This document shows positions 3,153 through 64,000 of a DNA stretch of 64,000 bases, one piece after another; the stretch's first letter is position 1, and each line of letters opens with the position of its first letter. The DNA is from Marsupella aquatica (lineage: Eukaryota > Plantae > Marchantiophyta). The translations under genes and the position numbers were made by a program. The notes beneath the pieces were generated by a model. It searched no databases. It was given only the letters and a program-made list of their open reading frames with translations, and was not told the DNA's origin. The DNA lies in NCBI GenBank assembly GCA_973895155.1, contig OZ316891.1, forward strand, positions 11,342,671 to 11,406,670. The letters are read 5' to 3'.

Positions 3153-4583
3153 AAGTTAATCCATTTCGACGTGCGTCATCAAATTCAACGCACACCTTGA
3201 TATTCTAATTAATAGATGCATGCGAAAGTCAATTATGTAATAAACTAAGCCCAATAATTTTTTCCGAAATGTCGAAAGCTATCTGGGATTGATGGGCATT
3301 ATTTACACGAAAGGAACTTTACTAGTACATTGATTTTGTACTAGTGAGTACTCAGATCTAGACTGAACTAAGGAAGATCTTGTTGTGGGCGGTCGACTTC
3401 TAAATTTTCAGCTGGTGTCTGTACGTTGAATAGAAGTGGGGCTCTGTATTTGTATCCGTTGTTTGTAGATTGAGCTCCAAATATCCATCGATCCGTTTTT
3501 AGATATCAAGCACAACATGTCGAGCTCTGGAAGCTAGACTCTGTACTCTTGCCTGACCTGCCTGAGTACATGATATTTAGGACTGTTAATCGATCCACTG
3601 ACCATGATCATCCATAAGCATCGGCAATATATTGATCAATGTATGAATTCGATATATTTGAAGCTATGAAAACTCAATACGTCGGTGGCAGCAGGGAAAT
3701 TCTCTGTGCTCTCGCTGGAACTTGGTATTCGGGTCGATCACACAAAGTGGCTTGGTAATTTTGATTGGGTTATTTGGGGGTATTTGCAGCTAACACGTCG
3801 AGACATGCATTCTCCCAATTTGCGGTAATTAATTTATATGAATTTATGTCCTAACTGGTCTAGACAGTACAAACTTCGGTACCTCTGGGTAGAAAAGTAT
3901 ATGTGGTGTCACGAGATTGAAATGACTCCGCGTGAGGTGCATGTGTAAGGACTACCCGTATACAGTAATGCGTCTCAAGGTACAGGACGGTGTAATCGAG
4001 AATTTCGAACCATAGCGAAAGCCTAAAAAGGCTGCATACCCGATCAAAACCGGACAGGCCTGCACCATTTCTTTCGACATCTCAAGATTGTATATGTAAA
4101 TTGTCATTCAAGTTAGTTCGTCCTAATTTTTCCATCGGCACCAGTTATGGAGCTATGATATGGATTGGAAAAGCCGAGGTGTAGCTAACTGCTTGCGATG
4201 TAGCTAGGATGTGTATTTGTTAGATATTTCACGCGGCTCAATCAAAATTCTTTCTGCAGGTTTTGAACAGGCCTCGGACCGAGCTGTTGATCATTCTGAT
4301 ACGTCTGTAATTAATCCAGGTGTCCTGATCAGTATACAGTGTCCTGGTCATCGTCCCACACAGATTGAGGTCGCTAAATTAGACATATTATCTCGAGGTG
4401 GACTCAACGTATATGGCAATGGACCTTACATGCATCTGGTTGCTAAGTCTTATCCGAGGTGATTGAAGGTTCAAAGAGTTGAACCATAGTCGTGACATCT
4501 AGTTCATGCAACAAGAATTTGGAGCCTGGTTGAGTGACTAGCTTCAAGCCATCGATCTAAGTTCATCGATCTTGAGATTCACA

Positions 4584-32496: not shown

Positions 32497-33816
32497 CTAA
32501 TCTTCTCCACCTATTTCGCCTTTCCTCTGCCAAAGGTGCTCCATTAAGTTATTTCTTAAACCAGACCAACTGGTTCTATTTTCCAAGTCCTTGTTGCAGC
32601 CAAGTAATCTCTCCGCAACATGCTCCCCCTATGCACAGTCAACAATGGACCTGCTTCAGCAAGGAAATCCTCGTGCTCTTCGCCCCTTTCGTCCTCAATT
32701 ATCATATTACATGTAGCACAATGTAGGCCATGAGGATAGTATGGACTCGCTCCATATGCCATGACCTAGCAGGTTGCTTGATAATGCCCCATCTATCTTG
32801 CAATATGCCAAAGGCCCTCTCCACATCCTTGCAAGCACCTTCCTGACACTTGGCAAAATAACTTTTCTGATTGAGGTTTGTGAAAGGTAGTCACAAAGCA
32901 AGACCACTTGGGATAAATCCCATCAACCAACAGGTAAGCTTTCTTGTACTTTGTTCCATTGATGGTGAAGTTCACCTGGTCATAGTGTTGATGCAGCATG
33001 TCATTGACCAGAGGAGACTATCTAGTACATTCAGATCATTATTCCCACCTGGAAATCCAAAAAAGGCGTGCCAAAACCAGAGTTCCTGGTCGGCAATTGC
33101 TTCAAGAACTATGGATTTATTCCCGTCTTTGTTAGTGAATTGTCCCTGCCATGCCATTGGGCAGTTCTTCCATTCATAGTGCATGCAGTCAAGGCTAGCA
33201 AACATGCCTGGGAACCCTCGTTTTTCATTGAAATCCAATAGCCTCAAGAAATCACTCTTGTCTAGCTTCCGCAAATACTTCTCTTCATATAGTTCTCTAA
33301 TGGCCAAGCAAAATCGGTAGAGAGACTTTCGGGTTGTTGATTCTACAAGCCTGCAGTATTCATCAGTGGCATCTGCCCCTATCCCAAATGCTAATTGGCG
33401 CAAAGCAGCTGTGACTTTTTGCAACCCAAATAGACCAAATTTTTTGTAGCTTCTCTCTTCTGTTGGAAAAATTGATCGTGTTCAGAAATTGCAAGCAAAA
33501 TTCTATCAAACAAACGTTGGGTCATCCTAAATCGTCTGCAAAAATCCTTACTATCATATGTACATGGCTCAGTGAAGTAATCATCAAGAATGGTTTGATG
33601 TCCTCGCTCACTCTTCCTATCTTTGTTGGGCTTCTTGCCAGGCATCAAACCTCCTCCTTGCTTGTGCTCCTTCCATTGCAACAATTGGACTCCTTGTAGA
33701 GAGAGTGGTCCAGTGCAAATGGCCGTCTCCCAAAATTTGTCCTTCTCCTCCATGGCCGCCATCTCAGCCACCATTTGTTGTTGCAATTTCTGTCTCCAAG
33801 CAGTCATGCGATCCAT
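32497..33816 (-). pseudogene. PIF/Harbinger DDE transposase, frameshifted
   Basis: Motifs DYF...FCRRFRM, QKVTAALRQLAFG, GFPGMFASLDCMHYEWKNCPMAWQGQF, LEAIADQELWFWHAFFGFPGGNNDLNVLD, YLLVDGIYPKW, KDVERAFGILQ, LMEHLW spread over several frames. Confidence 0.92.
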
Positions 33817-34371
33817 GGTCCAAGCTTCGCTTGTTGGAAAATTGAGTCAAGCTCTCTTGCGCGGATGAGCTATGTCGTTTTTGAAATGTTTGGGAGTTTG
33901 TTTTGTATGGACATTGAGAAATCTGCACAAAAATGCTCCTGTTTGGTGGGTTCAAACCTAGGTGCTACGGTTCGAACGCACAGTTGAACTTTCCAGGCCA
34001 CCTTTAGTGGGCATCGGTGCGACGTGCGTTGCGTGTGGGGCCAAAACCCAGATGCAAGCCCACAAACTTCCGGGGTAATTTGCCCTTTGGTAGAGCCGCA
34101 CCTGGAAACCGGTGCGGATGCTCTTAGTAGACATCCATATAAGTTTTTGCTTTATCTTTTGGGGGGCACAAGTTTTTAAAAATATTTCAGTGCTTTTCTT
34201 TGTTCTTTTTGGTATGATGAAAATTTTGAACTAGAATTTAGATAGAATACCATACTAAACCTTTTGTTTGCATAAGTTTGTTAGTGGACCCTTGGATTTT
34301 TGGTGACAACCTGGGAGGAGAGATCATTCTCAAGATTCTTTTGCTCAATGTCATTGTTCACACTGTAACAA

Positions 34372-43227: not shown

Positions 43228-44863
43228 GTGCGACTCATATGTATGAGGAAGGTTGGAGTCACAATTGCAAAACGTGACACTAGTACATAGCTGCGGATGC
43301 GGATAAGCTGGCCAGCTGTGAACAATGGACCATTTTCAGATCTTAACTCTGTTGTGACTTTCTCTGTAGTCTCCAGTCAACCTCTTGTTTTCTCAGAGTG
43401 ACCGTAAAGTGAGGGCGAAGTGGACACGCCTCTTCCGATTCTACTGAAATTCCTCTGGGCATTGGAGGATGAGGTCGTCTAGGGCTTGAACTTCTCCTGT
43501 GGCTGCGTTGCTTTCCGTAGGTTGGGGGATCGGTCGAAAGAGTACAGTAGTTGGAGCAGTTGGTCAAGAGAAAGGAGGCAGGAGAATTTTGTTTTGGAAT
43601 TTGGAAAGCCATGACAAAAACATTGTTACACAGATTTCATCAGTTTTAGTATATTTCCCTGAAATTGTGGAGCAAAGGCTAACTGTAGAGGAGAGAGGAA
43701 TGTGAAAAAGCGAAAGGTCTTAGATACTTCTCGTTTTACATGGTCAGTGGTGGTTTAAAAAGCAGTAGCACTCAACGATTTCCGGGAAAAGGTTGGGGGT
43801 CAGTTGACAGCGGCGTCGATGAGAAAGAGACGAGGGTTTCTGGGGATGTGACCAGGTGGAGACAACAGAGGCGATAGAGGCGATCAAGGTTGGACAGATT
43901 GTATTGCTCGAGGTTATCCACAACAGGCAAGGAGGAGACCAGGAGACTGGAGGTCTGGAGGAGGTTTGTGCACAGAGAGGAGTAAAGGCGAGTGAGTTTT
44001 ATGTACGGGGAAGGGCAAGGGACAAAGATGGAGGTAGAGTGAATGAGTGAAGGAATGAATGTTGGGTTAGGCGAGGACCCTCAGGAGGTTGATTGAGAGA
44101 CAGAGGAGATGAAGCTCGGGTGGCCTCTCATGCTGGAGTTTGTGGTCGCTGTATTCAGGCGTCTCTCGCTCTGGGTGCGTACTTGTGTCGCAGTAGCTGC
44201 CATCATTGCAGAGGCGCTTCATAGCGCTGAATTGGAGTCTTTTCACGTCGCGTGATTCAATTGCAGTGCCCTCAGCTCATCAGTCTATCAATTCTGCAAT
44301 ACGCATCACTTTACACCAAGGAATTCGTCGGGACCAAATTAGTGATTTCAAAGCGGTGATCTCTTTGCAAATTTATAAGTTGCTTTAGTGATAGTTTGAA
44401 GTATTCGGAGAAGTCTAAGGTTTTCGTCGCCAGCAACAACTCACTGAAGACTGCATTTTATTCTTGACGGTTGATCAAATGAGATCTCTCCAGGCACCAG
44501 AAAGCTCGTCATAGGGGATTGGCCGCAGACCACCGTGGTGAGTAAGTAACGGTAGACTTCATCTAGCTAGACCGGTTCCTTGTACAAGCAGTGAGCCCTT
44601 TCGCAAAGTTTCAACACACCACACCACACCACACCACAGCCCTTGAAGAGTGAATCCAATCGTGCACTTTAAGGTTGTAATCGTTCTCGCTTATGCTATT
44701 CCAAAGAGAATCTAAACTATCTCAATGTCTGGTTCTCTGTGTGCACTGGTCCAATCATTTCCTCTCTGCACTTTTTTGAGTATACTGTAAGGCACGGATT
44801 AACGATTAAGAGAGATTTCTGACTCTATGTTGTTGTTTCTAGTGCAGCGGTTCCGCTGTGGTT

Positions 44864-45847
44864 ATGTATCCGGAAAATGGTAGAGAACCCACTCAGATGC
44901 GCAATTTGAAACGGCGTCCTAAAATGGATACTGGAGGGGAAAAGGAGACGCATGAGGATGAAGTTGCCAAGAAACGGAAAAAGCTTCGACGGAGACGACG
45001 GCATAGTATTCAGTCCGACGACATTAGTGCGGCACCGGAAGGTGGCGGAATCAATGCAGGCTTCACGATGTTGAAGGGCAAGAGAGAAAGACCGGAGTTT
45101 GGTGTCGTGGACGATGACGTCCTGTCTAGTGAGCGATCTACTTCTGCGACTCTCTTGAGGCCGTCGACGTTTCTCGATAACATGCGTGCGAGATTGTCTG
45201 GAGGCAGGTTCCGCATGCTCAACGAAACGCTGTATACGTGCAGGGGTGAGGATGCATTCCAGCTCTTTAAGAAGGATCCTGCGTCGTTTACTCTCTATCA
45301 CACAGGGTACCAGGAGCAGATGTCACGGTGGCCTGTTCTGCCAGTTGAGGTTGTGATCAGCTGGCTGAAGGCACGGAGCCCTAAGCTTGTTGTTGCTGAC
45401 TTTGGTTGCGGTGATGCGAGACTAGCAAAGAGTGTCAAGAATAAAGTGTTTTCGCTGGATCTGATCTCAGCGGACCCGGCAGTTATTGCTTGCAACATGG
45501 CGCAGACACCATTGGCCACTGCTTCCGTTGATGTTGCGGTTTTTTGCCTTTCGTTGATGGGAACAGATTACCCTAGTTTCTTAGAAGAGGCACATCGCGT
45601 TCTGAAGTCTGGTGGATTTCTTCTCATTGCTGAAGTTAGAAGCCGCTTCGACATCGAGAACGGTGGTGCTAGCCCTAAACAGTTTGTTCTAGCTCTTCAG
45701 GCACTTGGTTTTTCTCTCGTCTCTCAGGATGTTACAAATAAGATGTTCATCATGTTTTACATGCAAAAGCAGAGGGGTTCCAGGGACTTGCTCAAGCGGA
45801 CCAAGCATTGGCCCGAATTGAAGGCGTGCATGTACAAACGAAGATAG
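44864..45847 (+). CDS. RRP8: Ribosomal RNA-processing protein 8, 25S rRNA (adenine-N1) methyltransferase
   Basis: RLSGGRFRMLNETLYT, YHTGYQEQMSRWP, VVADFGCGDARLA (SAM motif I), VDVAVFCLSLMGTD, LLIAEVRSRF, LKACMYKRR. Intronless CDS; probable 5'-UTR intron ending at TGCAG ~44847. Confidence 0.95.
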   Translation: MYPENGREPTQMRNLKRRPKMDTGGEKETHEDEVAKKRKKLRRRRRHSIQSDDISAAPEGGGINAGFTMLKGKRERPEFGVVDDDVLSSERSTSATLLRPSTFLDNMRARLSGGRFRMLNETLYTCRGEDAFQLFKKDPASFTLYHTGYQEQMSRWPVLPVEVVISWLKARSPKLVVADFGCGDARLAKSVKNKVFSLDLISADPAVIACNMAQTPLATASVDVAVFCLSLMGTDYPSFLEEAHRVLKSGGFLLIAEVRSRFDIENGGASPKQFVLALQALGFSLVSQDVTNKMFIMFYMQKQRGSRDLLKRTKHWPELKACMYKRR

Positions 45848-49674: not shown

Positions 49675-49824
49675 TTACACCACCACTAGCCCTACACCAT
49701 AAATAGGTATCCTTTCCTGAATTTGTGGGGCAATATGGAAAGGGAGAGCAGAAGAATGACAGGAAAGTGATAAAAGGAGAAGTCTTGGACACTTCCCCCC
49801 TTTTATATGGCTAGTGACGGATTA
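49675..49824 (-). mobile_element. MITE family copy
   Basis: TIRs ACACCACCACTAGCC / GGCTAGTGACGGATTA; inverted homolog of 41252-41426. Confidence 0.7.
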
Positions 49825-50669: not shown

Positions 50670-50897
50670 GGGTAGGCTGGTACCAGGAAAGAAGTTGGGC
50701 CTCTCTAAACAAGTAATTTAGAAACTACAGGCAAAGCAGGTAGGCTGGTACCAGGAAAGAAGTTGGGCCTCTGAAGATCTAAACAAGTAATTTAGAAACC
50801 ACAGGCAGAGCAGGACACTCCTACCCCTAACAGGAAAGAAGCTGGGCCTCAGATGGAGGCATCTAAACAAGTAATTTAGAAACTATAGGCAGAGAAA
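50670..50897. repeat. Three tandem ~70-80-bp repeats
   Basis: CAGGAAAGAAGYTGGGCCTC...TCTAAACAAGTAATTTAGAAACYAYAGGCA three times. Confidence 0.85.
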
Positions 50898-52591
50898 CAC
50901 TCCTAAAGATCGGCCAGTGATCAGGTTTAGGCAAAGTTCTTTTCAGTGGGTGTGCGAGAGAGCAATGACTCAATCAGTCAGTCTGCAGTGGAGCTTCAAA
51001 ACCTGAGCTGTTAAACATTGACCTGAGTCATGATGAGTAGATAGACGAAAGCATTTGGCGATTACAAAAGTTGTCGGCGGTTTCAGTAGAACACTGTCAG
51101 GTCCGAGCTGAAGAAAGCCTCGGACTTTGATTTCGCTCTTTATCAAAGTGTTTTCTGTTCTTGATCCTCCACGGTTTCCTGATTCCAAGTCATATTTCAG
51201 ACCCACGGTTTCAACAGAAGAAGGAGAGCAGGTTCTCAGTTCATTAGCTCTAAGCAGACCATGAACTCCAGGTTCTCAAAGGTATTTACATTATTCAAGT
51301 CAGGAGTCCCCTCAAGTCACAAACTAACATAAGCTCTCACAAAATTTTGAGCGCTCATGAAGTCCATGGAGTCCTCAGAACTTGACAACTTGATGTGGAC
51401 TTATTGAGCTGATCCCCCTAAATGTCTTGGTACTTTGTAATGTTTATTGATACTTCAGCTTGAGGAAGTCAGACTTGGGCATAGGAATATTCATGCTCGT
51501 CATCCTATTGAAGACGTACAGATGAACCTTTCGCTTTCGGCACCTCTTGGGGATATTGCTGTTTGGTTTGGGCTTGTTACAGTTTGTGCTTTGGAAAATA
51601 TAAACAAGAAGTTCGGTTTGAAAGGTGACAACCATTTTACAAATTCCCAGGGGCCCATGTTGGAATTATGCAGGGCTTGGTGTCTTGGCGTTTAGGTCCT
51701 TTTGCTGACCAATGAAGAGCGGATGCAGATTTTGTACTGAGGGGGAAAGGAATGTGAAATAGACAGGCCCAATGCACGAAAATCACTTGGCAGTGAGTGA
51801 CAGAACTCACCGCCAATAAGAGCCAATTACTCTCGTACGTTACACAGACCATGGACGAAGACACTCATCAAAGGATCACCTTGAATGAAATCATTTAACG
51901 GCTGTCATTCCCCACATGTGCTACAGTCCCATTTTGAGAAAGCGTACTGCTCAAGAGGAGCCAGCGGTGGGTACCTCTTTCACTGTCAAGCAGACTAGTC
52001 TTCATCTGAATCCTACTAGAATGTTTTCTTTTGAAATGAAGTGACATAGAGTCTAATCTAATGTGTACACATGTACGATTAATAATTATCCAGTGCCCCT
52101 AAATACACTTGCCCATTTCCATCGCCAAGGTGAGAGATAGGCTTGACAAATACCTTCCAAATCTTTCCCAGAAACTCTTGTGTTGCCCCCTTGTTTGTCA
52201 GTAGTAAACTTAGGGTCAATACAATGATCAACTCATAACTCGTGGGAAAGAATTTATAGAAATGGATGACTACAAGCAAGATTTCCTCATCTCATTCCTA
52301 TTGGAGAGGACAAAACTCAAATCCTGTCTCGGTGATCCACACGACCATTGTGCTGGGGACAGAAGCTTCTGAATTTCTGACAATCTGCAAATTTGAGTTT
52401 CACGCGTGGACTTCTTAGATTTAGAGCGAAACTCTTGTCTGAAAGTATCGATCCCTGTGTACAAAATTTACACGGTAGTCGACAGGGAAAGCACTCATCA
52501 ACCACTGACTAAAGAAGCTCATACTTCCACACCAGACTGCTGCCATTGAGGCAAGAACCTTCAAAATTCCAAAAATCAGCCATCTTTCTTG

Positions 52592-53389
52592 TCAACCGCC
52601 ACGGCCCCCTACAGCGGCATCAGCCTGGGGTACAGCAGTAGTGACCTCAGCAGCGAGCTTGGCTTGGGCCAGGTCTTTGATATTCGTAACCTCATCCTGC
52701 ACAACTCGTTGATGAGGATGACAAAGCAGAAAGCATATGTGCTTGAACAGAGTCCGTGCACTACCACTACTGCTCTCGAAGATGTAGCCTTCGTGTTGGC
52801 TCACATGCTCCAGGGCATCCACCAATGCATCATACACCCTCTGGGGGCAGTTGTTGGGTGCCGGCTTGTCATGCATGTAGAGAGCATCCAGAGTAAAGCT
52901 GTTCTGCCGTTCCAGCCATTGCTCCGAATATTCTGGCACCACAGATGAGCGGCAATAAATGAGAACGAGTCTCAGAGTCCTGCCCTGAGAGATGGAAGCT
53001 CTGGCTTCTGTGGTGGCCACTTGAAACAGAGCTGAGAGGTCAAACTGGTCATACGCCACTGCGTCGGTGTTGATAGTCCTCACAGACGTGCTGATCACGT
53101 CCAGGTTGCTGCTGAACTCTTTCTGATGCCACGAGGGGAATCTGCCCAGAGTCAGAAAGGCAAATTGGTGGAGTGGGTTCATTGTCAGCTTGGAATGGAT
53201 GAACAGCAGTAAGGCCTGTTTCACAGCATCCATCCTCCGCAACGCCGGACCCTTGCTTCCCCCACTGGAAACGGCCTTCATTTCAGCGTCGGCATCCTTG
53301 TCTATATCCACCGCAATCAGAATGTTCTCCAGCGTGTAGCTTCCGGATTTCGCGTCGTGACGCCCATGCTCCATCCCATGGCGATGCAT
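52592..53389 (-). CDS. BABAM1: BRISC and BRCA1-A complex member 1 (MERIT40/NBA1), vWA-like domain
   Basis: ENILIAVDID...MDAVKQALLLFIHSKLTMNPLHQFAF, FDLSALF, LRLVLIYCRSSVVP, FTLDALYMHDKP..NCPQRVYDAL, LLCHPHQR; matches plant MERIT40 homologs as recalled. Intronless. Confidence 0.9.
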   Translation of the reverse strand: MHRHGMEHGRHDAKSGSYTLENILIAVDIDKDADAEMKAVSSGGSKGPALRRMDAVKQALLLFIHSKLTMNPLHQFAFLTLGRFPSWHQKEFSSNLDVISTSVRTINTDAVAYDQFDLSALFQVATTEARASISQGRTLRLVLIYCRSSVVPEYSEQWLERQNSFTLDALYMHDKPAPNNCPQRVYDALVDALEHVSQHEGYIFESSSGSARTLFKHICFLLCHPHQRVVQDEVTNIKDLAQAKLAAEVTTAVPQADAAVGGRGG

Positions 53390-54720
53390 TTTTATATATT
53401 GGCCACCGTTCTCAGACGACCTTGAAACCCTGTTTTCCTCTTCCGAGCCTACAGTAAACTTGCTTCAACCTAAAAGCAGAACTTGAATGGAAACGACGGG
53501 GACGAGAAGAGAAAAGAAAACATGTGAGTCCTCTATTCTCCCTCCAAATTATGGGAACTAGCCAGAACGAAAATTCTTTTTGGAACCCAGCCTCTGCCGA
53601 AACTCCTTCAACCTTCTTCCAACAATTCAAGACCCGATCGAACTCTTCAACCCGAAGAAGCCACTCACCAAGACTCGCACAAATTCATTCCTTTTAGGGC
53701 TGAACTCTGAAGAGACAATGGAGGAATACTCAATTTCCCATTCAGAAAGTGCACATTCTCTAGACGTTCCCACATGTATGAAAAGCTCCGCCAACTCAGA
53801 TAATGTTCTCGTCCAGCTGGATCAAGGATTCGCCCTCGTGATTGACTGCAGCTTTCTCTACATTGTCGAACCAAAGCTCATCAGTGGCACAAGTTGAACA
53901 TGCGAGCTGCTCCTGAGACGAGCAATCGCTACAACAGCTCCATTCTTTCGCATCACGCAGGTCAAATCCCCAGTGGTGAAGCAGAAATGCCTCCTTTACG
54001 CTCCGTCTGAGTCCTTCGTCACTATTGCACTGCAAATTCTGCAAACAGAGAACGAAAAACATTTATCCCCTTCCACTCTGTCTATCATCCTCTCCATTTC
54101 CATGGAACACTAATGGCAGCACAAAGAAATTGGAATGGGCACTGACATTGCTATTGGGATACAAACAGGACCTTTATACTGGCACAAACTACTTTTTTTT
54201 TCTTTTCTTTCCCCTTTGGAGAAAAGAGGGCAAGCCCCCCCAAAATTTATACCTTAAAACCGCAAAACAATGGGTCCTTGCCTGGGGGAAGACTCTTAGA
54301 ACCTCAGAGTGTCATTCTATGGAAATAAGAGATTATATGCAGAGTGACCATGATAACCAAGAGAACCCAACTCCTGCACTTGAATTCCAGAATACCAGAG
54401 AAATCCACTGAACACCTTCTACTATAAGGCAAATGCTTACATGTCAGCAATGTTGGAATTTTGTCTTGTAGTGATGCGTAAATGACTATTGCATAGTATT
54501 TGATAGGATTTAGTGGGAAAATTCAACACATGCCAAATAAAAGTACATGTTACATAATGACCAGTAAAAGTTTAAGTGCACAAGTCTTGAAAAGTAGTGC
54601 ACATAAGGTACAAATTTTCACTTGCTTTAATGACACTCAAAATCAAAACTCAAAATCCTCCCTTGCATTAGGTAATGACAGTAAAAACCATAAACTTAGC
54701 AAATAAAAGTTTGAGGAGTA

Positions 54721-54890
54721 CTTAAACCACAACTGCCCTTCAAAAGCTACGGGTTACCCGTAGTTACCATTAAAAGGAGAATTTTCCTGAAATTGTTAGT
54801 TACCATTAAAAAGAGATTTTTCCTGAAATTGTGGAGCAAACTGACATGCTAGAGGAGAACAATGATGAAATGTGGAAGTTGTGGTTTAAG
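54721..54890. mobile_element. MITE family copy with perfect 14-bp inverted ends
   Basis: CTTAAACCACAACT (54721) / AGTTGTGGTTTAAG (ends 54890); internal TTCCTGAAATTGTGGAGCAA shared with 43655 and 49713. Confidence 0.7.
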
Positions 54891-55408
54891 GCAGGAGGCC
54901 AGAGTCCACACCTCAAAGTATGAATTCTCTCTCTCATTCACTAGAATTGGCAGAAATTCCCATAAAATCTTTAGAGGGGTTGAATTCACTATATTGAAAG
55001 CTAAACTTAGTGGGGAATGGAAGCTCTAGCATCCTAAACTATAATACACAGTTGCGCCAAAAAATGGCGTGGTCGTCATTCAAATTTGGAGTGTCCTTTT
55101 GGGTGAGAATAATTAAAACCTGTAAATATGGAACCAATAAGGGAAAGGAAAAAAAAGGAACGTGAAAAAACTTGGTACAGGGCCAGGTGTACACAGGGTG
55201 TGCACAAACCAGGTACACAAAGATGCACAAGACAAGTACTATTGTACCTTCAGGTACAGACATATGAGCTCATTACTCTTGGGAGCCCAGGTACAAGGTA
55301 CAAAGGGGATAGACCCGGTTTGAGTTGTCGGACAACTTGTCGTGTTGTCGGACACGACAACTTGTCATTTGTCGCCCGAAAATGACCTTATTTGTCGCAT
55401 ATTCCCTC

Positions 55409-55858
55409 TTATGCCCCGGTCCGGACCCGGCCCCGGCCCGGCCCAATCCCTTCCCGGCCCGGCCCATTCCCTCCCCGACTCTTCCCGGCCCCTTCCATTC
55501 CCGGCTCGGTCCGGCACCCGGCTCGGCCCCGCACCCGGCCCGGCCTCACAAACACTAGGTGAGGGCGGGCCGAGTGCGGGGCCGGGCGGGATGCGGGACC
55601 CGGCCGGGAAGGGGCAGGGCCGGGAATGGGAGAGGCCGGGCCGGGAAGGGAAGGGGCCGGGAAGGGAAGGGGCCGGGCCGGGAATGGGAAGGGCAGGGCC
55701 GGGAATGGGAGAGGCCGGGCCGGGAAGGGAAGGGGCCGGGAAGGGAAGGGAAGGGGCCGGGCCGGGAATGGGAGGGGCAGGGCCGGGAAGGGAAGAGGCC
55801 GGGCCGGGAATGGGAGTGACCGGGAAGGGAAGGGGCCGGGCCGGGCCGGGCCGGGAAT
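55409..55858. repeat. GC-rich subterminal array (CCCGG / GGGCCGGGAAGGGAAG units), partly palindromic
   Basis: C-rich arm 55409-55545 is the inverse of the G-rich arm 55560-55858; many GGG tracts with short loops. Confidence 0.9.
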
Positions 55859-55859
55859 G

Positions 55860-56190
55860 ACTTTTGTACGCACATGTTTGGAGCTTCGGCTCGACGTGTG
55901 GCATTTCATGCAGAAATTTTTGAATCTCCCTTAACAATTTAGTGATATTTGTGAGTTTTGTGATACAATTACATCGATAGACGTATTCATGTACGCATGT
56001 TTGGAGCTTCGGCTCGACGTGTGATATTTTGCATGGTTATCGCAATTCATCGGAAATGTTTTCACTCAATTAGCAAATTATTGTTAAATTATAGATATCA
56101 CATACGTCGGATAGGAAAGTGAATGACTTAAAACAAAAGTAAACATTTGTGCTCATGCTTGGAGTTTAGACTCGGCATGGGATATTTCAC
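55860..56190 (+). repeat. Left long subterminal inverted-repeat block (3 x ~37-bp unit)
   Basis: CATGYTTGGAGCTTCGGCTCGACGTGTGRYATTT at 55873 and 55996, with a more diverged copy at 56154. Confidence 0.9.
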
Positions 56191-56296
56191 TAATGTTTTA
56201 TCTTCCTGTTTCCAAGTCGTTACTTTCAAAACAAAAATAAAACTATTTTTTGGTTGAGTGAAGGCATTTCACACTTATTTGTGAGTTAGTACTTCA

Positions 56297-59188
56297 TTGT
56301 TTTCGACCATGTCTTCAGATGAAGATGAGTCAGGTGACTTATCAGCCCATTCAACTCCTGTTAGACAAGGTCGAAATCCGGCGCGAGAATGTACTGCAAA
56401 ATTTTCCCCGGTATGGAAATATTTTGATCGATGTGACTCTCCGTCAGGCTGTCATGACATCAATCGTATGTATCGAAAATGCCGGTTTTGCAAAAAATAT
56501 ACTACATTCCATGCAACACGAGCAAGGGCACATTTGATGGGAAATATATACAAAGGGGATGCACCACCTTGCCTAGGACTCTATGGTGTCATTGAATTGG
56601 ATGACATCAATAGAATGTACAATGTGATCAAAGTGGACTCTTCTATTAGGTACAAACGAAGCGATGGAAGTCATATACTATTGTCTGCCAGAGGTCGGAG
56701 ATCGTTTATCCAAACGACAAATTCGCAAGCTTCAACTCGAGGCTCCAATCATGTTGACGTGGAGGAGAATCCAAACATGAGAAATGCGGCTAGGGCATCA
56801 AGTCTTTCAAACCCTATTATAGATGCTTATCAAATTCCAAATAGATCACATTTGGATAAGCTATGGGCAAAAGCTTTTTACTTAAGTGGTATTCCGTTCA
56901 ATGTCTCAGAGAATCCATTATTTCAAGAAGCAGTTGCAGAGACTTCTAAAGGAATTGTTAATGGGTATTCCCTTCCTAGTATGCGAAACCTCAAATTCAA
57001 ATTGTTGGAGGAGGTCAAAGCTGATGTCGCAAAAGACATGACAAAAACCATGAAGGAGGCCAAACCTTTTGGATATACCCTTTCATCAGATGGATGGGAA
57101 AATATCCGAAGAGAACCCTTGATGAATGTCATGTTGTTGACTTGTAGAGGAGATATTTTCTTGGATAGTTGGAATGCTGCACAAGCTGATAAGAAAGATC
57201 GAAGATACCTTGGAGAGATGTGGCTGAAATATATAGACGAAATTGGCGCGGATCACATCATACAAATTGTAACCAACGGTGCGCCAGCTAATCGAGTTGG
57301 AGGTGAAGATATAGTGATGCAAAAATATCCGCATGTTACTTGGAGCTGGTGCGCTGCCCACGTGTTTAATTTGTTGCTAGAAGACATGTGTGGCCATAAG
57401 AAAATTGTGGTAGATGAAAGTGGACGAAATCCATTCAAATTCATTTTCAAATGTTTGAGGTGGATAGTAAAAGCAGTTTCATCATCCCAAAAACTCTCCG
57501 CAATTTTTGTTCGAAAATCTGCCTACAGAAAACTGTTGAATCCAAATGCAACAAGATTTGCGACCAATTTCTTAATGGCGCAAAGAGCATTGGAGCTAAG
57601 AGGTCCCTTGCAAGAAATGGTCATTGATGATAAATGGCATCTTTATCGTGATAGGCTTCCAGGTCACTCAAGGTCGAATGGGCACATGACGAGAGCAAAG
57701 GCAGATGAACTGAAGCAATGGATTCAACAAGATGCATTTTGGGCTCAAGTGAGTTCTACAGTGACTTTTTTCACACCGTTGGTGAAGATGCTACGTGAAT
57801 TTGATGGGGACTTGCCGCAGTCAACTTGGTTGTATTGGAGCTTGAAAAAGGGGATTGCTGATCTGGAGGCGAGCATGGAAGAATGTTCCTTAGTAATTGA
57901 GTACCTGAAACCAAGGATAAGGAAAGTGTATATGGATCGAAGGAAATCGCTTACTAACGATTTCATGCTAGCTGCAGCATATTTGAATCCTCATTATTTC
58001 TTTGATGAAGACGAAGATGTGGGCGGAGATGCTGAGCTATGTAGAGGCTTCAATGATTATGTTGCAAGATACGCAGAACACAGTGTGAAGCCAGGGATCA
58101 ACCATGATCATGATGTCACTAAACTTATTTCTGCCATCCAAAAGCAGGCATTCGAGGCTCAAAAGAAATTGCCAAACACATCTGTTGGCATAAGAGGAGC
58201 CCAAGCAAATATTGAAAATTTCAGTCCGGGAGAGTGGTGGCATGCATATGGAGCTGATTACAAGGATCTAAGGATCATGGCTAGGAAAATCACTCACCAA
58301 CAAATGTGCGCATCATCGTGCGAACGGAATTGGAGTTCGTATGGATTTATACATTCAAAAATTCGTAACAGGTTGACCAATGATCGGGCAAAAGATTTAG
58401 TCTTTGTATTCACAAATACGCGAGTGGAAAAAGGACTTACAAAGGTCCGAAACCCCCAAACGTTCATCTACAAACGTTATGATGAAAGAAGAGCAAGAAA
58501 TGATGCACCTAGATCATCCTCCACTGAAGCCTTCCAGAATGAGGAGCATGATGCAAGAAGTGCGGGTCAGGGGGAGGAAGATGTCAATGATTTTGATACA
58601 ATTGATGACGCCGATGAGGCGTTGCAAGGATTGTCATTGCAATGTGATAGTGAGGTATTGACTCGTATTCCACCGGATACTGAGGATAGTAATGCGGGTG
58701 AATGGGAGGATGATACTGACTACTTCATGTTTCCTACCATTGACGAGTCTCAAGTCCAAGATGATGAGGAGTACTCATTGCATACAGGCTTTGATATGCA
58801 TTCCCAACCAAACCCATTTTTCACTTTTCCAGGATTGAATGTCCACCGTGATCACCTAGCAAGTACTTCATATGCATTTCATAAAGGAAGTGACATACCA
58901 GAGCATCATTTGGAGGGAACTACTTCTGCCTTTTATGCACAACATGATCAACTACAACGCCGAACACTACATAATGATGCACAGTGGGGACAAACAGTTA
59001 CTCCAGCAGTCAATATCACGAACCCATACCCATCATACACGCATGCTCGTGTCATTCAACAATCTCATGACAATGACGATTCGCATAATCGTTACCCATT
59101 TCCATGGGCCAATCGACATCATAAATTTGATGGACTCATGCAACAAAATCAGAACAATATGACGAGGGATTACTCCTCACAGCCTTGA
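56297..59188 (+). CDS. hAT-family transposase (BED zinc finger, DUF659/RNase H-like core, hAT dimerisation domain)
   Basis: PVWKYF..KCRFCKK..ARAHL (BED); SGIPFNV, YTLSSDGW, IIQIVTNGA, WCAAHVFNLLLEDM, TRFATNFL, AAAYLNP, EWWHAYG, ASSCERNWS..FIHSKIRNRL. No internal stops; first ATG at 56309. Confidence 0.95.
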   Translation: MFSTMSSDEDESGDLSAHSTPVRQGRNPARECTAKFSPVWKYFDRCDSPSGCHDINRMYRKCRFCKKYTTFHATRARAHLMGNIYKGDAPPCLGLYGVIELDDINRMYNVIKVDSSIRYKRSDGSHILLSARGRRSFIQTTNSQASTRGSNHVDVEENPNMRNAARASSLSNPIIDAYQIPNRSHLDKLWAKAFYLSGIPFNVSENPLFQEAVAETSKGIVNGYSLPSMRNLKFKLLEEVKADVAKDMTKTMKEAKPFGYTLSSDGWENIRREPLMNVMLLTCRGDIFLDSWNAAQADKKDRRYLGEMWLKYIDEIGADHIIQIVTNGAPANRVGGEDIVMQKYPHVTWSWCAAHVFNLLLEDMCGHKKIVVDESGRNPFKFIFKCLRWIVKAVSSSQKLSAIFVRKSAYRKLLNPNATRFATNFLMAQRALELRGPLQEMVIDDKWHLYRDRLPGHSRSNGHMTRAKADELKQWIQQDAFWAQVSSTVTFFTPLVKMLREFDGDLPQSTWLYWSLKKGIADLEASMEECSLVIEYLKPRIRKVYMDRRKSLTNDFMLAAAYLNPHYFFDEDEDVGGDAELCRGFNDYVARYAEHSVKPGINHDHDVTKLISAIQKQAFEAQKKLPNTSVGIRGAQANIENFSPGEWWHAYGADYKDLRIMARKITHQQMCASSCERNWSSYGFIHSKIRNRLTNDRAKDLVFVFTNTRVEKGLTKVRNPQTFIYKRYDERRARNDAPRSSSTEAFQNEEHDARSAGQGEEDVNDFDTIDDADEALQGLSLQCDSEVLTRIPPDTEDSNAGEWEDDTDYFMFPTIDESQVQDDEEYSLHTGFDMHSQPNPFFTFPGLNVHRDHLASTSYAFHKGSDIPEHHLEGTTSAFYAQHDQLQRRTLHNDAQWGQTVTPAVNITNPYPSYTHARVIQQSHDNDDSHNRYPFPWANRHHKFDGLMQQNQNNMTRDYSSQP

Positions 59189-59649
59189 TATGTTTTGTGA
59201 TTACTATAGGATGATATCTGTCAATTGTAATTTTTGAAGTATAATACATATTTTTTTCCCACTTTGAATGGCTTTGGTGCTTGATTTTACTCTTGCTTGC
59301 GATTGTATTGTCGATTACAATTTTTAGAGTGTTCTATATTTGAACGTATTTTTGTGAAATAATCACCATATTACAGCAGCAATCGCTGAATTCATATCTC
59401 CACGCAAAAGATTCACCGAGTGTAAAAATGAAGTTTAATAAATATATGTTTTCAACTTTGAAGGACATGCCCATGAAAATCTTTGTGGTGCAGCCGGTAC
59501 TATATATGAATAATATGATCTAATGTCTAGAAACTATCCTATGCGGCCGATACTATAGAAAATGTGTATAGTACAACTAGGTAAGCGTACACTACACGAT
59601 CAAAAATGTATGAATATGCAAATAGTAAATGTTTTGGTATCTTCCTCTC

Positions 59650-61511
59650 TCAATGCATGGTCATTTCCGCTTTCACTTCTGCTTGTTGTTGACGTCGCCG
59701 ATGACGACGAATAGATCGTTGCATGTTTTGCTCGTTGGTAGTTGGTTGATTGGACTGAGCATACTCTTTCCATTCATTGAAACGACCACTGAATAATAAC
59801 TTGTCAAAGTCACCATCTGACAGATTGTACTCATTGATTGTAAAGTTTTCAATGGGTGTGGAATCTATTTCCGTCATCGCCACACCGTCCTGAGTCATGT
59901 CTTCATCGTCTTGTTGTGTCTCCATTGGTGGGATTTGATTCAACAATCCTCGTTGCTCATACTCCTGTTCATGAAATGGTTTCCTACACCAACATTTTCG
60001 ACTCTTCTTCATCCACCTGAATAAGCAAGCATGATGTCATAAATATCCGCAAGTTCCCATAATGGAAACTTATTCTGGGCCCCATGGATATAAACACCAA
60101 GGACACCTTGCACCCATTTGTCGAACAAATTCAGCCATACTTTCATCTTTCTTCCACTTATCAAAATACTCCTCAACTGCTACCGAATCGACCTCCACAT
60201 CAGGAAAAAGGTTAGATTCTAATGTAGGATCAATCATTTGAAAATTCATAAAATTGACATTGTTCAATTTTGATTTTCCTTTGTTCGATTCATTGTCCAT
60301 ATCAGAATTGTTCATTTGGTCTATCTCTTCTTGGAGATTTGTGATGATGAGCTTTTGTGATGCAACTTCATCCTTCAGATTCTTTATGACTCTATTTTCT
60401 TGAAGTTGCGCTTGTTCATTGGATTGCCTTTCATTTTTAGCAACTTGCCTTCGAAGCCTCTCAATTTCTTCCATCTTGTCAAACAATTGGGCCTTGTATC
60501 GGTACATGTCTTGGACCTCACAATTGGTACCCGATGAAATAGACATCTTCTCTAGTGATTTCATCTTCAAATCACTCTCTTTTAGTTTTGACGTGTAGTA
60601 GTCAATGCTACCAGCGTCACAAAGTTTGAGACGGTAATTGATGCGGAGAATGTTCTCAATAAAATCACCAATCTCACATCCCAACCCCTTGCAGACACTT
60701 TGCATGCAAGGAGTTCCCTTGTTGGCATCCAAAACACCCGTGTTGTTTGTTGGTAAGGTGCTACTTGGACCAATAGAAACGTTGTCGTAGTGCTTTTTCC
60801 TTCTTTGATACAAGCGGCACTGCTTTCAGATTTTGTAAAGAACTGTGGGATTGCAGTCATTTTTTGGCTCTCATTTGTATGCACCTTGTGCACTTCATCT
60901 ATTTTTCGCTTGGAGCCTTTGTTGGTAGTCACAGGCATTTTATTCCTGTTACTTGTGGTGGAAAAGACTTTCGAGTGAACATTATGCACAAACTTGCCTT
61001 CGTCCGTCTCCCATCGGTAATCCACTTTCCACCTTAGGATGAATTCAACAATCAGTAGTCGGATAAAAGGAGTATATACTGAACTCGTTTTCCCTTGCGC
61101 TTTTCTTGGAGCAAATTCCCTGTAATGTTGTGCCCAGTGCTGCTTCACCTCTTCATGTGTCACCTTCGACATAGTAAACTTATCTTGCAACCAAGACTTT
61201 GTGCCCCACATTTTCTCATCGCGAAAAATCATTTTGGCAAATTTTTGAAAAGCCTCCTTAGGCATCAATATTTCCAATTCTTTGGCGTTGATTGGCCATT
61301 CCGTGTGAGGAGGTTTCACATCGGGTGTGAGTATATTCCATTGCACATTGGGTTTGGACTCGTCCTCCGTCTAAGTTGCTGGAAGTTTGTGGACGTTGTC
61401 AAAACTGTAATTTTCGTGGTCCAAGTAAGACCCTTGACCATCTTGCATTTTAGGATCATATACACGATTGGGCTCATCATCCTCATCTGAACTCAACTCC
61501 CATTTTCCCAT
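59650..61511 (-). pseudogene. Coiled-coil + RING-H2 (E3 ligase-like) cargo gene, disrupted
   Basis: ATG 61511 (MGKWELSSDEDD); in-frame TAG 61371-61373; frameshift ~60780-60810; coiled coil (MEEIERLRRQV...LQEEIDQM); read-through gives CPWC...PE*VSIMGTCGYL*HHACLFRWMKKSRKCWCRKPF. Confidence 0.75.
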
Positions 61512-61670
61512 CCTTGCAAAATTTCCAATAAAAACAAATATTTAGCATTCATTGCAACATTCACCAAAAAAAAAGTTTTATGAGATGATATAAAAATTTC
61601 AATTTATACCACATGATGAACATGTGATTGTTCATGTGGTAATTAAGAGAAGATAATGGTGAAAACTAAT

Positions 61671-63332
61671 TTAATCTCTCAAATAAACACTATTTTGTGT
61701 CAACAATCTACACTCTTGAAATGTGCGAACCATCCTCAAACTCCAATGGGCACAATCCATTCTTTTGGTAGGATCAGTGGCCATCATGTCACGAATGATA
61801 TTCTCTAATTTTGGACCATACATTCTAGTATTCCAACCCGCCATCAAAAATCGTGTGCTTGGCCCCATTCCATCCCAATTTTCTGTGAGTAAAGTCTCGA
61901 ACAAATTGCCTAGAGCATAGATATCAGTTGCTTCACTATACTCTGTTGGGTCAGGTCCAACAAGCTCTGGTGCCAATTGAGGGTATTGTCTTCGATAGGC
62001 AATAACTTTCTCACTTGGGGTGGACCACATTCGATTCTCTGGTAATGTACATTGTGTTTTGTGCCTGGATAACCCAAAATCACAAATTCCTACATACACT
62101 CTGATAGCAACATCATCCTCGTGATCAAAGTGAAGTAAAATATTTCCAAAGTGAAGATCACAATGTAGTTGATCGTGCTTGTGGAGAAACTGTAAGGTCT
62201 CCAACAAAGCCAAAGCAATCCCCAAGCGATGCTCCAAAAATATTTTCTTCTCGGATATGAATCTCACATCAACCTGCACATTCCCTTGTGACTTCCCCTT
62301 GCTTTTACCCCATTTTCCACACTTATCCATGAAGCTTCCCAAGTCACCTCCATTGTAAAAATCATAGATAAGTTTGGGTGGAAATTCGATGGTCATTGCC
62401 AAGGCCCCAATAACTCCCTTATGATTCAAACCCCCCATTAGCACTTCTTGTAACGCATCTTTTATCCTCTTGTGCCGATCTCCATCTTTGAATCTTTTTG
62501 CCACTAGCTTCACATTTCGAGGAATGAGTGGGCAATCCAAGATATGGCACAAGAACACCTGCCCTTGGCTGCCACTCCCAATGCGATGTAAATTCTTCAC
62601 TTGTTCCATCCTCAAAAAGTGAATACTCCTTACTGCTGGAACAACACGTGATGGTCTTGTACCTCTTTGGTGCCCTTCAACACTAAGCTCCCCAAATTGC
62701 ACGACCTTATTCGCATATTTGACATTACTTTCTGTTCTGGCCATTCCTAACTCATTGCTCCATTTTAGACACAATTCTCTTTTGTGTCTATGGAGGGCAG
62801 GATTTCCAAGGAATATGGACTCAGCCCCCCCCAAATTGGCTACCAACTTGTCCCACAGGTTCACAGCCAAGTTCAGTGCCAATTGCTCAACAAATCCTTG
62901 AGGCTTCTCAGCCTCGCGTTGAAATTGCTGAATTTGTTCTCGTGTCATGTCCTCTTCCTTCTCTACGGTTTGGCGCATGCAACGCACCATGTCATTTTGA
63001 AAGTTTTTGTATCCCTGTTCTCCATGTAAGGTATACTTCCTTTCAAACCTATCATGCTCATACTGTTCCGGTTGGGTGTAGGGATATACTATATCCTTCC
63101 AAATGGCCAGTAACACATTTTGTCGATGGATGATGTCGATGGTTGTTTGAGCAGCCCCTCCTCTTTGTTTTTGCTTCCCTACTATTTTGGCTTTTCTACT
63201 AAACCCTAAGATTTTGTGCGCATTCCTCAAGGCATTCAGGGCATTCGCATCTGGTTCCAATCCATCGCTCAACATGGTACTCATCACCTCCATCAACTGC
63301 CTATATTCTACACCTACATCCGGGTTGGCCAT
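61671..63332 (-). CDS. Protein kinase (ePK fold, TKL-like) with ~250-aa unknown N-terminal region
   Basis: IGSGSQGQVF (Gly loop), VAKRF (Lys), LQEVL (alphaC Glu), YNGGDL, HCDLHFGNILL, ICDFGLSR, LAPELV, TDIYALG, DPTKR. Uninterrupted and intronless; ATG at 63332. Confidence 0.92.
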   Translation of the reverse strand: MANPDVGVEYRQLMEVMSTMLSDGLEPDANALNALRNAHKILGFSRKAKIVGKQKQRGGAAQTTIDIIHRQNVLLAIWKDIVYPYTQPEQYEHDRFERKYTLHGEQGYKNFQNDMVRCMRQTVEKEEDMTREQIQQFQREAEKPQGFVEQLALNLAVNLWDKLVANLGGAESIFLGNPALHRHKRELCLKWSNELGMARTESNVKYANKVVQFGELSVEGHQRGTRPSRVVPAVRSIHFLRMEQVKNLHRIGSGSQGQVFLCHILDCPLIPRNVKLVAKRFKDGDRHKRIKDALQEVLMGGLNHKGVIGALAMTIEFPPKLIYDFYNGGDLGSFMDKCGKWGKSKGKSQGNVQVDVRFISEKKIFLEHRLGIALALLETLQFLHKHDQLHCDLHFGNILLHFDHEDDVAIRVYVGICDFGLSRHKTQCTLPENRMWSTPSEKVIAYRRQYPQLAPELVGPDPTEYSEATDIYALGNLFETLLTENWDGMGPSTRFLMAGWNTRMYGPKLENIIRDMMATDPTKRMDCAHWSLRMVRTFQECRLLTQNSVYLRD

Positions 63333-63572
63333 GTTCGCGCGACACCAGAACAAAGAGTATCAAAAGGAGTAGAAACTTACGATGCGTATTGGCTGGGAGG
63401 CGAGGTACTGATGCAGTGTGTACAACCAAGCTGCAATAGGAACTCCTGGAAAATCATGCGTGGTACACCTTGTCACGGGAGGGTCACGGGATAGTCACGA
63501 GATATATTTGTTTTTTTTCATTCATTATTATTATTGTGAATGTAACAACTGCAAAGGGGAAAGATAACTCTT

Positions 63573-63900
63573 GTGAAATACCCCACGCCGAGCCGAGGCT
63601 CCAAGCATGGGCACAAATGATATCCTATCCTTTCAATTATTAACATTCCTGCTTCAAATCTATGTGATAACTATAGTTTAGATACCATTTGTGAGGGAAG
63701 TGAAATCGTTCACGAGGAGTCGTAATATCCATGCAAAATATCACACGCCGAGCCGAAGCTCCAGGCAAGCGTACATGAATGTCTCTATCCTCGTAAACTT
63801 TCCACTAATCCCACAAATGATACTAAACTATTAAGGCGGTATTAGATTTTCCCATACGAAATACCACACACCGAGCCGGGGCTCCAAGCATGCGCGCATG
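63573..63900 (-). repeat. Right long subterminal inverted-repeat block
   Basis: AAATAYCMCACRCCGAGCCGRRGCTCCARGCA units at 63573, ~63733, ~63857; reverse complement of 55860-56190 with the same spacing. Confidence 0.9.
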
Positions 63901-64000
63901 AGAAACTCATAATACCCCTCCAAATTAAACTAAACACTAACTTATAATGACCATACATAAAGCAAAGACACAAAGCAAAAAATAAGTAAACCATGCAAAG

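What the first reader, a model, noticed from the sequence alone, without database searches (positions are those of the whole stretch)
55310..64000. Three-gene hAT transposon carrying a protein kinase and a RING E3-ligase-like gene
Seen: an hAT transposase (+) faces two intronless minus-strand genes (kinase 61671-63332; coiled-coil/RING-H2 59650-61511), and all three lie between mirrored ~330-bp inverted blocks, so the cargo is inside the element. Established: autonomous hAT elements (Ac, Tam3, hobo) normally encode only the transposase, whereas other DNA transposons carry accessory host-manipulating genes (e.g. VANC anti-silencing in VANDAL MULEs, Ulp1-type proteases in Kaonashi MULEs). Inference: a kinase + ubiquitin ligase pair looks like a self-contained phospho/ubiquitin module that could counter silencing, regulate the transposase, or act as a toxin/antidote-type selfish system. 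I know of no described hAT family with this architecture.
Basis: partly seen in the sequence, partly recalled or inferred. Interest (0 to 1): 0.9.

Follow-up and report, generated by a model that had tools for sequence, protein, structure and literature searches.

The report
Liverwort-type transposon with its own kinase
This is a damaged copy of a repeated plant jumping gene that likely carries, besides its transposase, its own conserved protein kinase and a RING-finger gene, extras that such elements are not known to have and that may help it against host silencing.

Summary
Largely real, with corrections. A hAT (DUF659) transposase (56309-59188, +) faces a RING-like gene and an intact 553-aa kinase between mirrored 377-bp blocks (72%). 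The left end is 55314, not 55310: contigs join it to unrelated flanks, and empty sites exist. This copy is damaged. The RING gene has three stops and a frameshift, and the transposase has N323 where two close relatives have D. Intact RING relatives exist (596-643 aa). In run X4, transposase and kinase contigs both stand about 7-15 times deeper than the flank; in X1 and X2 the kinase does not keep pace. The kinase is a conserved family (synonymous sites saturated) with dispersed copies in Calypogeia fissa. In one related locus it keeps the same terminal block, but a MULE-like transposase gene follows instead of RING. The right end and target duplication lie beyond the window and were not seen. 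Ten paper searches found no description. Verdict: likely a new multi-gene variant of hAT elements; the function of the extras is inferred only.

The parts
55306..55313 (+). 8 bases before the insertion point (GGGATAGA), the left target-site duplication if the element makes an 8-bp one; they belong to the host repeat
   Evidence: Empty-site contigs match through 55313 and then go on differently in 4 of 4 runs laid. The partner copy lies beyond the window and is untested.
55314..55374 (+). Left terminus, about 60 bp, starting CCCGGTTTGAG, with TTGTCG/CGACAA repeats; candidate terminal inverted repeat
   Evidence: Contigs with unrelated flanks end exactly before 55314 (X1 7, X2 4, X3 11; agreement 0.48, 0.57, 0.42, as expected for random flanks). 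A 53-bp X4 contig at depth 1678 starts at 55314. No partner inside the window.
55410..55860 (.). GC-rich subterminal array of CCCGG/CCGGG repeats, inverted about 55555
   Evidence: A CCGG-rich end is also seen in a Petunia hAT row of Table S2 of PMC12973397.
55869..56240 (+). Left inner block with three roughly 35-bp units, spaced 123 and 158 bp
56309..59188 (+). hAT (DUF659-type) transposase, 959 aa, open frame. D261, CxxH 348-351 and E672 are present; N323 stands where relatives have D, so this copy is likely inactive.
59650..61511 (-). Broken RING-H2-like gene: unknown N-terminal domain, coiled coil, RING with a C-x-C end. Three stops and one frameshift.
   Evidence: Intact relatives P0161 (643 aa) and P0012 (596 aa), and partial P0011. 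zf-RING_2 E 1.4e-5 on P0011, below Pfam's cut-off.
61671..63332 (-). Intact protein kinase, 553 aa: helical N-terminal region (about residues 60-200) plus a kinase domain with GxGxxG 252, K279, E296, HCD 390-392 (non-RD), N397 and DFG 418
   Evidence: Fold matches are tyrosine and TKL-type kinases, from a low-confidence model.
63525..63896 (-). Right inner block, mirror of 55869-56240, three units spaced 160 and 123 bp
   Evidence: Homologous block upstream of the L001 kinase: score 201.5 against a shuffle maximum of 88.5.

Best explanation
This is a damaged copy of a multi-copy DNA transposon with a hAT-type transposase that likely carries a conserved kinase and a RING-finger gene as its own accessory genes, which would act on host proteins to help the element escape silencing. 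Shown: a mobile left end at 55314, the three genes between mirrored blocks, raised depth of all three genes, purifying selection on the kinase family, and lesions in this copy. Inferred: the right end lies some hundreds of bases past 64000 (element about 9.5 kb); intact copies transpose by ordinary hAT cut-and-paste, with the BED finger binding subterminal repeats; the kinase is the long-term passenger and the slot behind it is exchangeable. Least supported and by analogy only: the kinase phosphorylates, and the RING protein ubiquitylates, host silencing or chromatin factors in trans. About 0.85 for the architecture and about 0.5 for this function given the architecture.
For: Left end with many flanks and with empty sites. 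No second terminus between it and 64000. In X4, single-contig depth over flank depth is 7.4-11.4 for transposase and 9.9-14.5 for kinase; both gene spacers are also deep (bins near 1165; a contig at 61565 at 686, flank 58). An X1 contig spans the RING start, the kinase and the right block in one piece (61113-64000). 8 kinase relatives at 45-67% identity, 3 of them over 99% of the length. Nine C. fissa proteins on 8 different contigs. Window vs L001 kinase pS 0.80, pN 0.35; vs L002 dS 2.48, dN 0.34. L001 keeps the block with the same unit spacing. L002's spacer behind the kinase matches the window's kinase-RING spacer (0 of 500 shuffles reach the score) and ends in an ORF start weakly like the RING N-termini (15 and 5 of 2000 shuffles). 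Transposase, RING and kinase relatives show similar divergence: 60-67%, 46-60% and 45-67%. Analogies: VANDAL accessory proteins (passage in PMC12973397) and AACRNL (PMC12957317).
Against: The right end and TSD were not seen. In X1 and X2 the near-identical kinase contig is at 0.7 times flank depth while transposase contigs are at 1.6-3.2 times, so some transposase copies lack this kinase or carry a more diverged one. None of the 3 related loci holds a hAT transposase; L001 has a DUF6729/MULE-like gene after the kinase. The terminus starts CCC, not the CA/TA recalled for most hATs. This copy's RING gene is broken and its transposase likely dead; whether sibling copies are intact was not tested. 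Nothing here shows expression, activity or a target.
Confidence: 0.45

Rival explanations
1. One element, but the extras regulate the element's own transposase: phosphorylation switches it on or localises it, and the RING protein limits it by degradation.
For: The same architecture evidence. MURB binds MURA in MuDR (passages of PMC12973397). The transposase and its relatives have long acidic tails that could take modifications (inference).
Against: In L001 the kinase's neighbour is a different transposase-like gene. Some transposase copies seem to lack the kinase. No binding or modification data.
Confidence: 0.2
2. The kinase, with or without RING, belongs to a separate or composite mobile unit that shares these end blocks and pairs with different transposases (hAT here, MULE-like DUF6729 in L001); the three genes are not one stable family.
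For: L001 layout: block, kinase, DUF6729 gene. Uneven depths in X1 and X2. Atypical CCC start. Terminus depth far exceeds gene depth.
Against: No second pair of ends inside 55314-64000. The two window blocks are closer to each other (364.5) than either is to L001's (about 202), as expected for co-evolving ends of one element. Even depth across genes and spacers in X4. The DUF6729 gene may be a nested insertion: L001's spacer is unrelated to the window's (91 of 500 shuffles).
Confidence: 0.15
3. A toxin-antidote selfish system: one gene harms haploid spores or gametes that lack the element and the other protects carriers. The pattern here would fit RING as poison and kinase as antidote.
For: Dead RING beside an intact kinase in this copy and a kinase without RING in L001 fit retention of an antidote. 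Liverworts are haploid-dominant (general knowledge).
Against: L002's kinase has two stops, so kinases decay too. Neither protein matches a known toxin. No segregation data.
Confidence: 0.1
4. Neutral capture of host genes (Pack-type cargo) that ride along without helping the element.
For: The RING gene is decayed here. Single hAT clusters with Pkinase or zf-RING accessory hits exist (1 of 337 each, Table S6 of PMC12973397).
Against: Whole intronless genes with conserved catalytic motifs, saturated synonymous sites and a block-kinase layout kept at 46% protein identity. No named host kinase among the close relatives looked up.
Confidence: 0.1

Closest known systems
hAT superfamily, plant DUF659-type transposases; Hermes as the studied model (PMC10368747, passages read)
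   Same: BED finger, DUF659 core, CxxH, hAT dimerisation domain, subterminal repeats near the ends, a sharp mobile end, many more ends than genes.
   Different: Two extra full genes on the opposite strand; about 9.5 kb predicted; 377-bp mirrored inner blocks; CCC start; TIR pair and 8-bp TSD unverified.
VANDAL/VANC and MuDR/MURB accessory genes of MULEs (passages of PMC12973397)
   Same: A DNA transposon with conserved accessory genes beside the transposase.
   Different: A different superfamily; no Pfam match links the cargo to those proteins; the cargo here are predicted protein-modifying enzymes; function untested.
AACRNL, an ADP-ribosyltransferase gene flanked by hAT or mariner ends in fish (PMC12957317, abstract and section 8 read)
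   Same: A protein-modifying enzyme spread with DNA-transposon ends, reported to relieve silencing; associated with more than one superfamily, as L001 hints here.
   Different: There the hAT elements are non-autonomous and the enzyme is a Crinkler-like ADP-ribosyltransferase; here a transposase gene, a kinase and a RING gene share the ends in a plant.
RING-H2 (C3H2C3) E3 ligases such as HRD1, RNF165 and AMFR
   Same: C-x2-C ... C-x-H-x2-H-x2-C in intact relatives; best PDB sequence hits are these E3s (E 8e-4 to 3e-3).
   Different: The last pair is C-x-C; scores are under Pfam's cut-off; the N-terminal domain has no match; broken in this copy; activity untested.

Membership tests
hAT superfamily | hAT-type transposase (BED, DDE core, C-terminal dimerisation domain) | tested here: met
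   DUF659 and Dimer_Tnp_hAT above cut-off; zf-BED below cut-off; alignment with 6 relatives
hAT superfamily | Short terminal inverted repeats at both ends | tested here: inconclusive
   Left end fixed at 55314. A second end variant about 86% alike over 60 bp exists in the runs, but it may be the right end or another subfamily. The right end is outside the window.
hAT superfamily | 8-bp target-site duplication | not testable with these tools
   Window ends at 64000, no genome held, and letters past the end are not printed
hAT superfamily | Subterminal repeats within a few hundred bp of the ends | tested here: met
   TTGTCG, CCCGG and 35-bp units at the left end; mirrored units at the right. Feature described in PMC10368747 passages.
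hAT superfamily | Dispersed copies and empty sites | tested here: met
   Unrelated flanks before 55314 in 3 of 4 runs among the rows shown; empty sites in 4 of 4
Autonomous active hAT copy | Complete D-D-E catalytic triad in this copy | tested here: not met
   N323 against D in P0166 and P0167 and in P0172 and P0173; its catalytic role is recalled, not tested
Catalytically competent protein kinase | G-loop, beta-3 Lys, alpha-C Glu, HxD...N, DFG | tested here: met
   All present and conserved; activity not assayed
RING-H2 E3 ligase | Eight zinc ligands C3H2C3 in an intact frame | tested here: inconclusive
   Not met in this copy (stops, His lost). Relatives have eight ligands with atypical C-x-C spacing and sub-threshold Pfam scores.
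Pack-type element with host gene fragments | Cargo are fragments of recognisable host genes, evolving neutrally | tested here: not met
   The kinase is full length, under purifying selection, with no named host parent among relatives looked up. The host genome itself could not be searched.
MULE (long-TIR) element | Mutator-type transposase inside the ends | tested here: not met
   Only a hAT transposase lies in 55314-64000. A MULE-like gene occurs only in L001.

The most novel reading that the evidence does not exclude
Liverworts harbour an old, still spreading lineage of multi-gene hAT transposons that encode their own kinase family and an exchangeable second effector (here a RING ligase): a transposon-borne phosphorylation and ubiquitylation kit aimed at host silencing, with the kinase-plus-end module able to pair with transposases of other superfamilies.
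Probability: 0.35. Interest if true: 0.85.

Novelty: new variant of a known kind. Interest (0 to 1): 0.62.

Why it matters
hAT elements are recalled as single-gene parasites. A lineage that has kept a dedicated kinase over saturating synonymous divergence would add a new class of transposon accessory protein, signalling enzymes, to the few described (VANC, MURB, AACRNL). It would also explain a block of unnamed kinases in liverwort annotations as transposon genes. Because depth differs about tenfold between two runs with the same species label, the family may be recently active, and it could be tested in Marchantia.

Tried and rejected
No whole genome held. Kinase profile in viral contigs: 116 pattern matches, 0 relatives. 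In bacterial and archaeal genomes: 61 matches, 0 relatives; transposase relative P0167: 14 matches, 0. L003 (21% identity) showed no tblastx or blastn match to the element and was set aside. No RNA holder was listed among 6 runs, so expression is untested. A start at 55310 was rejected. A MITE ending near 55860 was rejected: no partner terminus in the window. An apparent likeness of L001's spacer to the window's was rejected (91 of 500 shuffles). Atlas search of the RING N-terminal domain gave no usable hit. The RING model was folded from one sequence and is unusable (pLDDT 40.6). The kinase model is weak (pLDDT 51), and fold searches were filled by the kinase domain, so the helical N-terminal region is untested. 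The kinase tree is the quick one; the careful search did not finish. The L002 dN/dS was misaligned by stop codons and redone. Rfam: 0 matches. Earlier findings: nothing by place or sequence. No complex prediction was run.
Full report
OBSERVATION. The transposase ORF (56309-59188, +, 959 aa) and the kinase ORF (61671-63332, -, 553 aa) are as described. Pfam gives DUF659 and Dimer_Tnp_hAT above cut-off, zf-BED below it, and Pkinase for the kinase. The mirrored blocks are real: 55869-56240 against 63525-63896, 72% over 377 bp, score 364.5 against at most 88 in 200 shuffles. The middle gene is not intact. It has stops at 61371-61373, 60070-60072 and 60037-60039 and a frameshift near 60790-60825. 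Read with X at the stops, its halves align to intact proteins: P0012 (596 aa, 46%), the partial P0011 (60%) and P0161 (643 aa). These carry C-x2-C, C-x-H-x2-H-x2-C and C-x-C; zf-RING_2 scores E 1.4e-5 but under the cut-off, and the best PDB sequence hits are RING E3s. The transposase has D261, CxxH and E672 but N323 where P0166 (67%) and P0167 (60%) have D. That this is the second catalytic Asp is recalled from hAT biology. So this copy is likely dead for transposition.

THE LEFT END. Laying contigs of four runs on 55262-55480 puts the end at 55314. Contigs with other flanks stop before 55314 (7 in X1, 4 in X2, 11 in X3; no such row was shown for X4, and 83 rows were not shown). Their agreement (0.48, 0.57, 0.42) is what unrelated flanks give (0.46, 0.53, 0.42 simulated); for X1 and X3 it lies below the range for four shared bases. 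A 53-bp X4 contig at depth 1678 begins at 55314. Empty-site contigs match the flank through 55313 and go on otherwise in all 4 runs. The element therefore sits in another high-copy repeat (about 54459-55313). The terminus has no partner inside the window, so the right end lies past 64000. Contigs in X1 and X2 run about 240-250 bases past 64000 and stop; by symmetry I infer an element of about 9.5 kb. A second end variant, about 86% alike over 60 bp, may be that right end or a sister family. No genome was held, so TIR pairing and TSD are untested.

DO THE GENES TRAVEL TOGETHER? I used depths of single contigs against the flank contig; the tool warns that depth is not a copy number, so these are rough. 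X4 (57% of the run read): transposase 7.4-11.4 times, kinase 9.9-14.5 times; both spacers deep (bins near 1165, and a contig at 61565 at 686, flank 58); RING bins 1000-2500. X4 has little or no cover at 62827-63628, which the partial reading may explain. X1: transposase 1.6-2.5, RING 1.4, kinase 0.7. X2: 2.6-3.2, 1.1-1.9, 0.7. So one run shows about ten near-identical three-gene copies, while two show more transposase than kinase. X2 and X4 bear the same species label, which hints at recent spread or local amplification. One X1 contig joins RING start, kinase and right block. X5, another organism label, covers all three genes thinly. Terminus depth is far above gene depth (up to 6300 in X4), as expected with many non-autonomous relatives.

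THE KINASE FAMILY. A word search found 8 relatives at 45-67% identity, sharing the helical N-terminal region; a profile search found 18 at E up to 1e-30. All catalytic motifs are kept; it is a non-RD kinase (HCD). Named relatives among the 30 clusters looked up (some RING or transposase): nine Calypogeia fissa proteins on 8 contigs, and a distant Riccia fluitans protein. The nearest row in a quick tree is C. fissa P0013 at 70%, and the family forms a supported group of 10-11 of 32 rows. The host is therefore likely a liverwort (inference). Against L001, pS is 0.80 (saturated) and pN 0.35; against L002, dS 2.48 and dN 0.34: long purifying selection. The structure model is weak (pLDDT 51) and only confirms a kinase fold nearest tyrosine and TKL-type kinases.

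RELATED LOCI. Of 211 metagenome matches, 3 encoded a relative; L003 was too distant to use. In L001 (46%) the kinase is preceded by the same three-unit block with the same spacing; it scores about 202 against either window block, with shuffles at most 91. The two window blocks are closer to each other than to L001's, as co-evolving ends would be. But L001's next gene is DUF6729 (E 2e-11) followed by a MULE-like domain (Atlas score 0.92, a lead only), with an unrelated spacer: a nested insertion or a swapped passenger. In L002 (57%, two stops) the spacer matches the window's kinase-RING spacer (0 of 500 shuffles) and leads to an ORF start weakly like the RING N-termini (15 and 5 of 2000). Neither locus shows a hAT transposase; L002 is only 1561 bp. 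Linkage of transposase and kinase outside this species group was thus not shown by me.

MECHANISM. Shown: mobility of the end, the layout, selection on the kinase, decay of this copy. Inferred: intact copies move by hAT cut-and-paste, with BED binding to subterminal repeats as in Hermes (passages of PMC10368747). A gene kept intact this long inside a mobile element should benefit the element. I favour action on host silencing or chromatin factors (0.45 overall), by analogy with VANDAL accessory proteins (passage, PMC12973397) and AACRNL (abstract and section 8, PMC12957317). Rivals: control of the transposase (0.2), a composite or separate unit (0.15), toxin-antidote (0.1), neutral capture (0.1).

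WHAT IS KNOWN. Ten full-text searches showed no paper on a hAT family with a kinase and a RING gene; apart from the three papers named, I saw only listings and abstract starts. The library lacks most subscription journals, and Repbase and Dfam could not be searched. In the 1007-genome survey (PMC12973397; passages and supplement rows seen), 1 of 337 active hAT clusters has a Pkinase accessory hit and 1 of 337 a zf-RING_2 hit, with no cluster named. 'Kinase' and 'RING' do not occur as whole words in its main text. Its species table has three rows labelled liverworts and no Calypogeia. Three of four end motifs that I searched are absent from the file, and the fourth hits a Petunia hAT with CCGG-rich ends. 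bioRxiv supplements were closed and may bear on novelty.

VERDICT. A real element, misread in detail: a damaged copy of what is likely a multi-gene hAT lineage of liverworts with its own kinase family. It works like a hAT; membership awaits the TIR pair and TSD. New variant of a known kind, interest 0.62.

Noticed in passing
window 54459-55313: A separate high-copy repeat (summed depth up to 4955 against about 60 in X1) with a sharp left edge near 54459 and many flanks; the transposon inserted into it. Weak likenesses at 26277-26377, 43654-43694 and 49713-49759.
   Followed up: partly
L001 2527-5521: A DUF6729 plus MULE-like DDE gene in two open frames directly behind the kinase, then the start of another ORF at 5522; a little-described transposase type in a plant-like contig.
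   Followed up: partly
window 55314-55480: At least two or three variants of the terminus exist in the runs, at depths far above the genes: likely many non-autonomous relatives or sister families.
   Followed up: partly
window 62766-63617 and 56105: One X1 contig (depth 329) matches the kinase, skips its N-terminal part, then matches the right block and the left block in reverse: likely a sister subfamily with a kinase next to its end block.
   Followed up: no
proteins P0036, P0045, P0048, P0050 and P0056, P0058 group: Two further unnamed kinase groups with helical N-termini and similar motifs, plus a Riccia protein (P0041); they may be other transposon-borne kinase families.
   Followed up: no
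window 32972-33846 (-): A broken Harbinger-like gene (Pfam Plant_tran, E 9e-35) in two frames.
   Followed up: no
window 44843-45847 (+) and 52592-53389 (-): Two apparently intronless host genes: a Methyltransf_8 (RRP8-like) gene and a 265-aa gene recalled as BABAM1/MERIT40-like (no Pfam hit). Their GC3 (0.53, 0.61) is above the element's genes (0.36, 0.43).
   Followed up: no
window 4542-7250 (+) and 19702-23181 (-): Long ORFs (902 and 1159 aa) with no convincing Pfam match; the first has two Myb/trihelix-like stretches by eye.
   Followed up: no
window 50671-50898: Short tandem repeats of 34-37 bp, three copies each.
   Followed up: no
proteins P0012, P0162, P0006, P0163, P0195: RING and kinase relatives carry the same run label in the collection, so they co-occur in one data set; linkage is unknown.
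   Followed up: no
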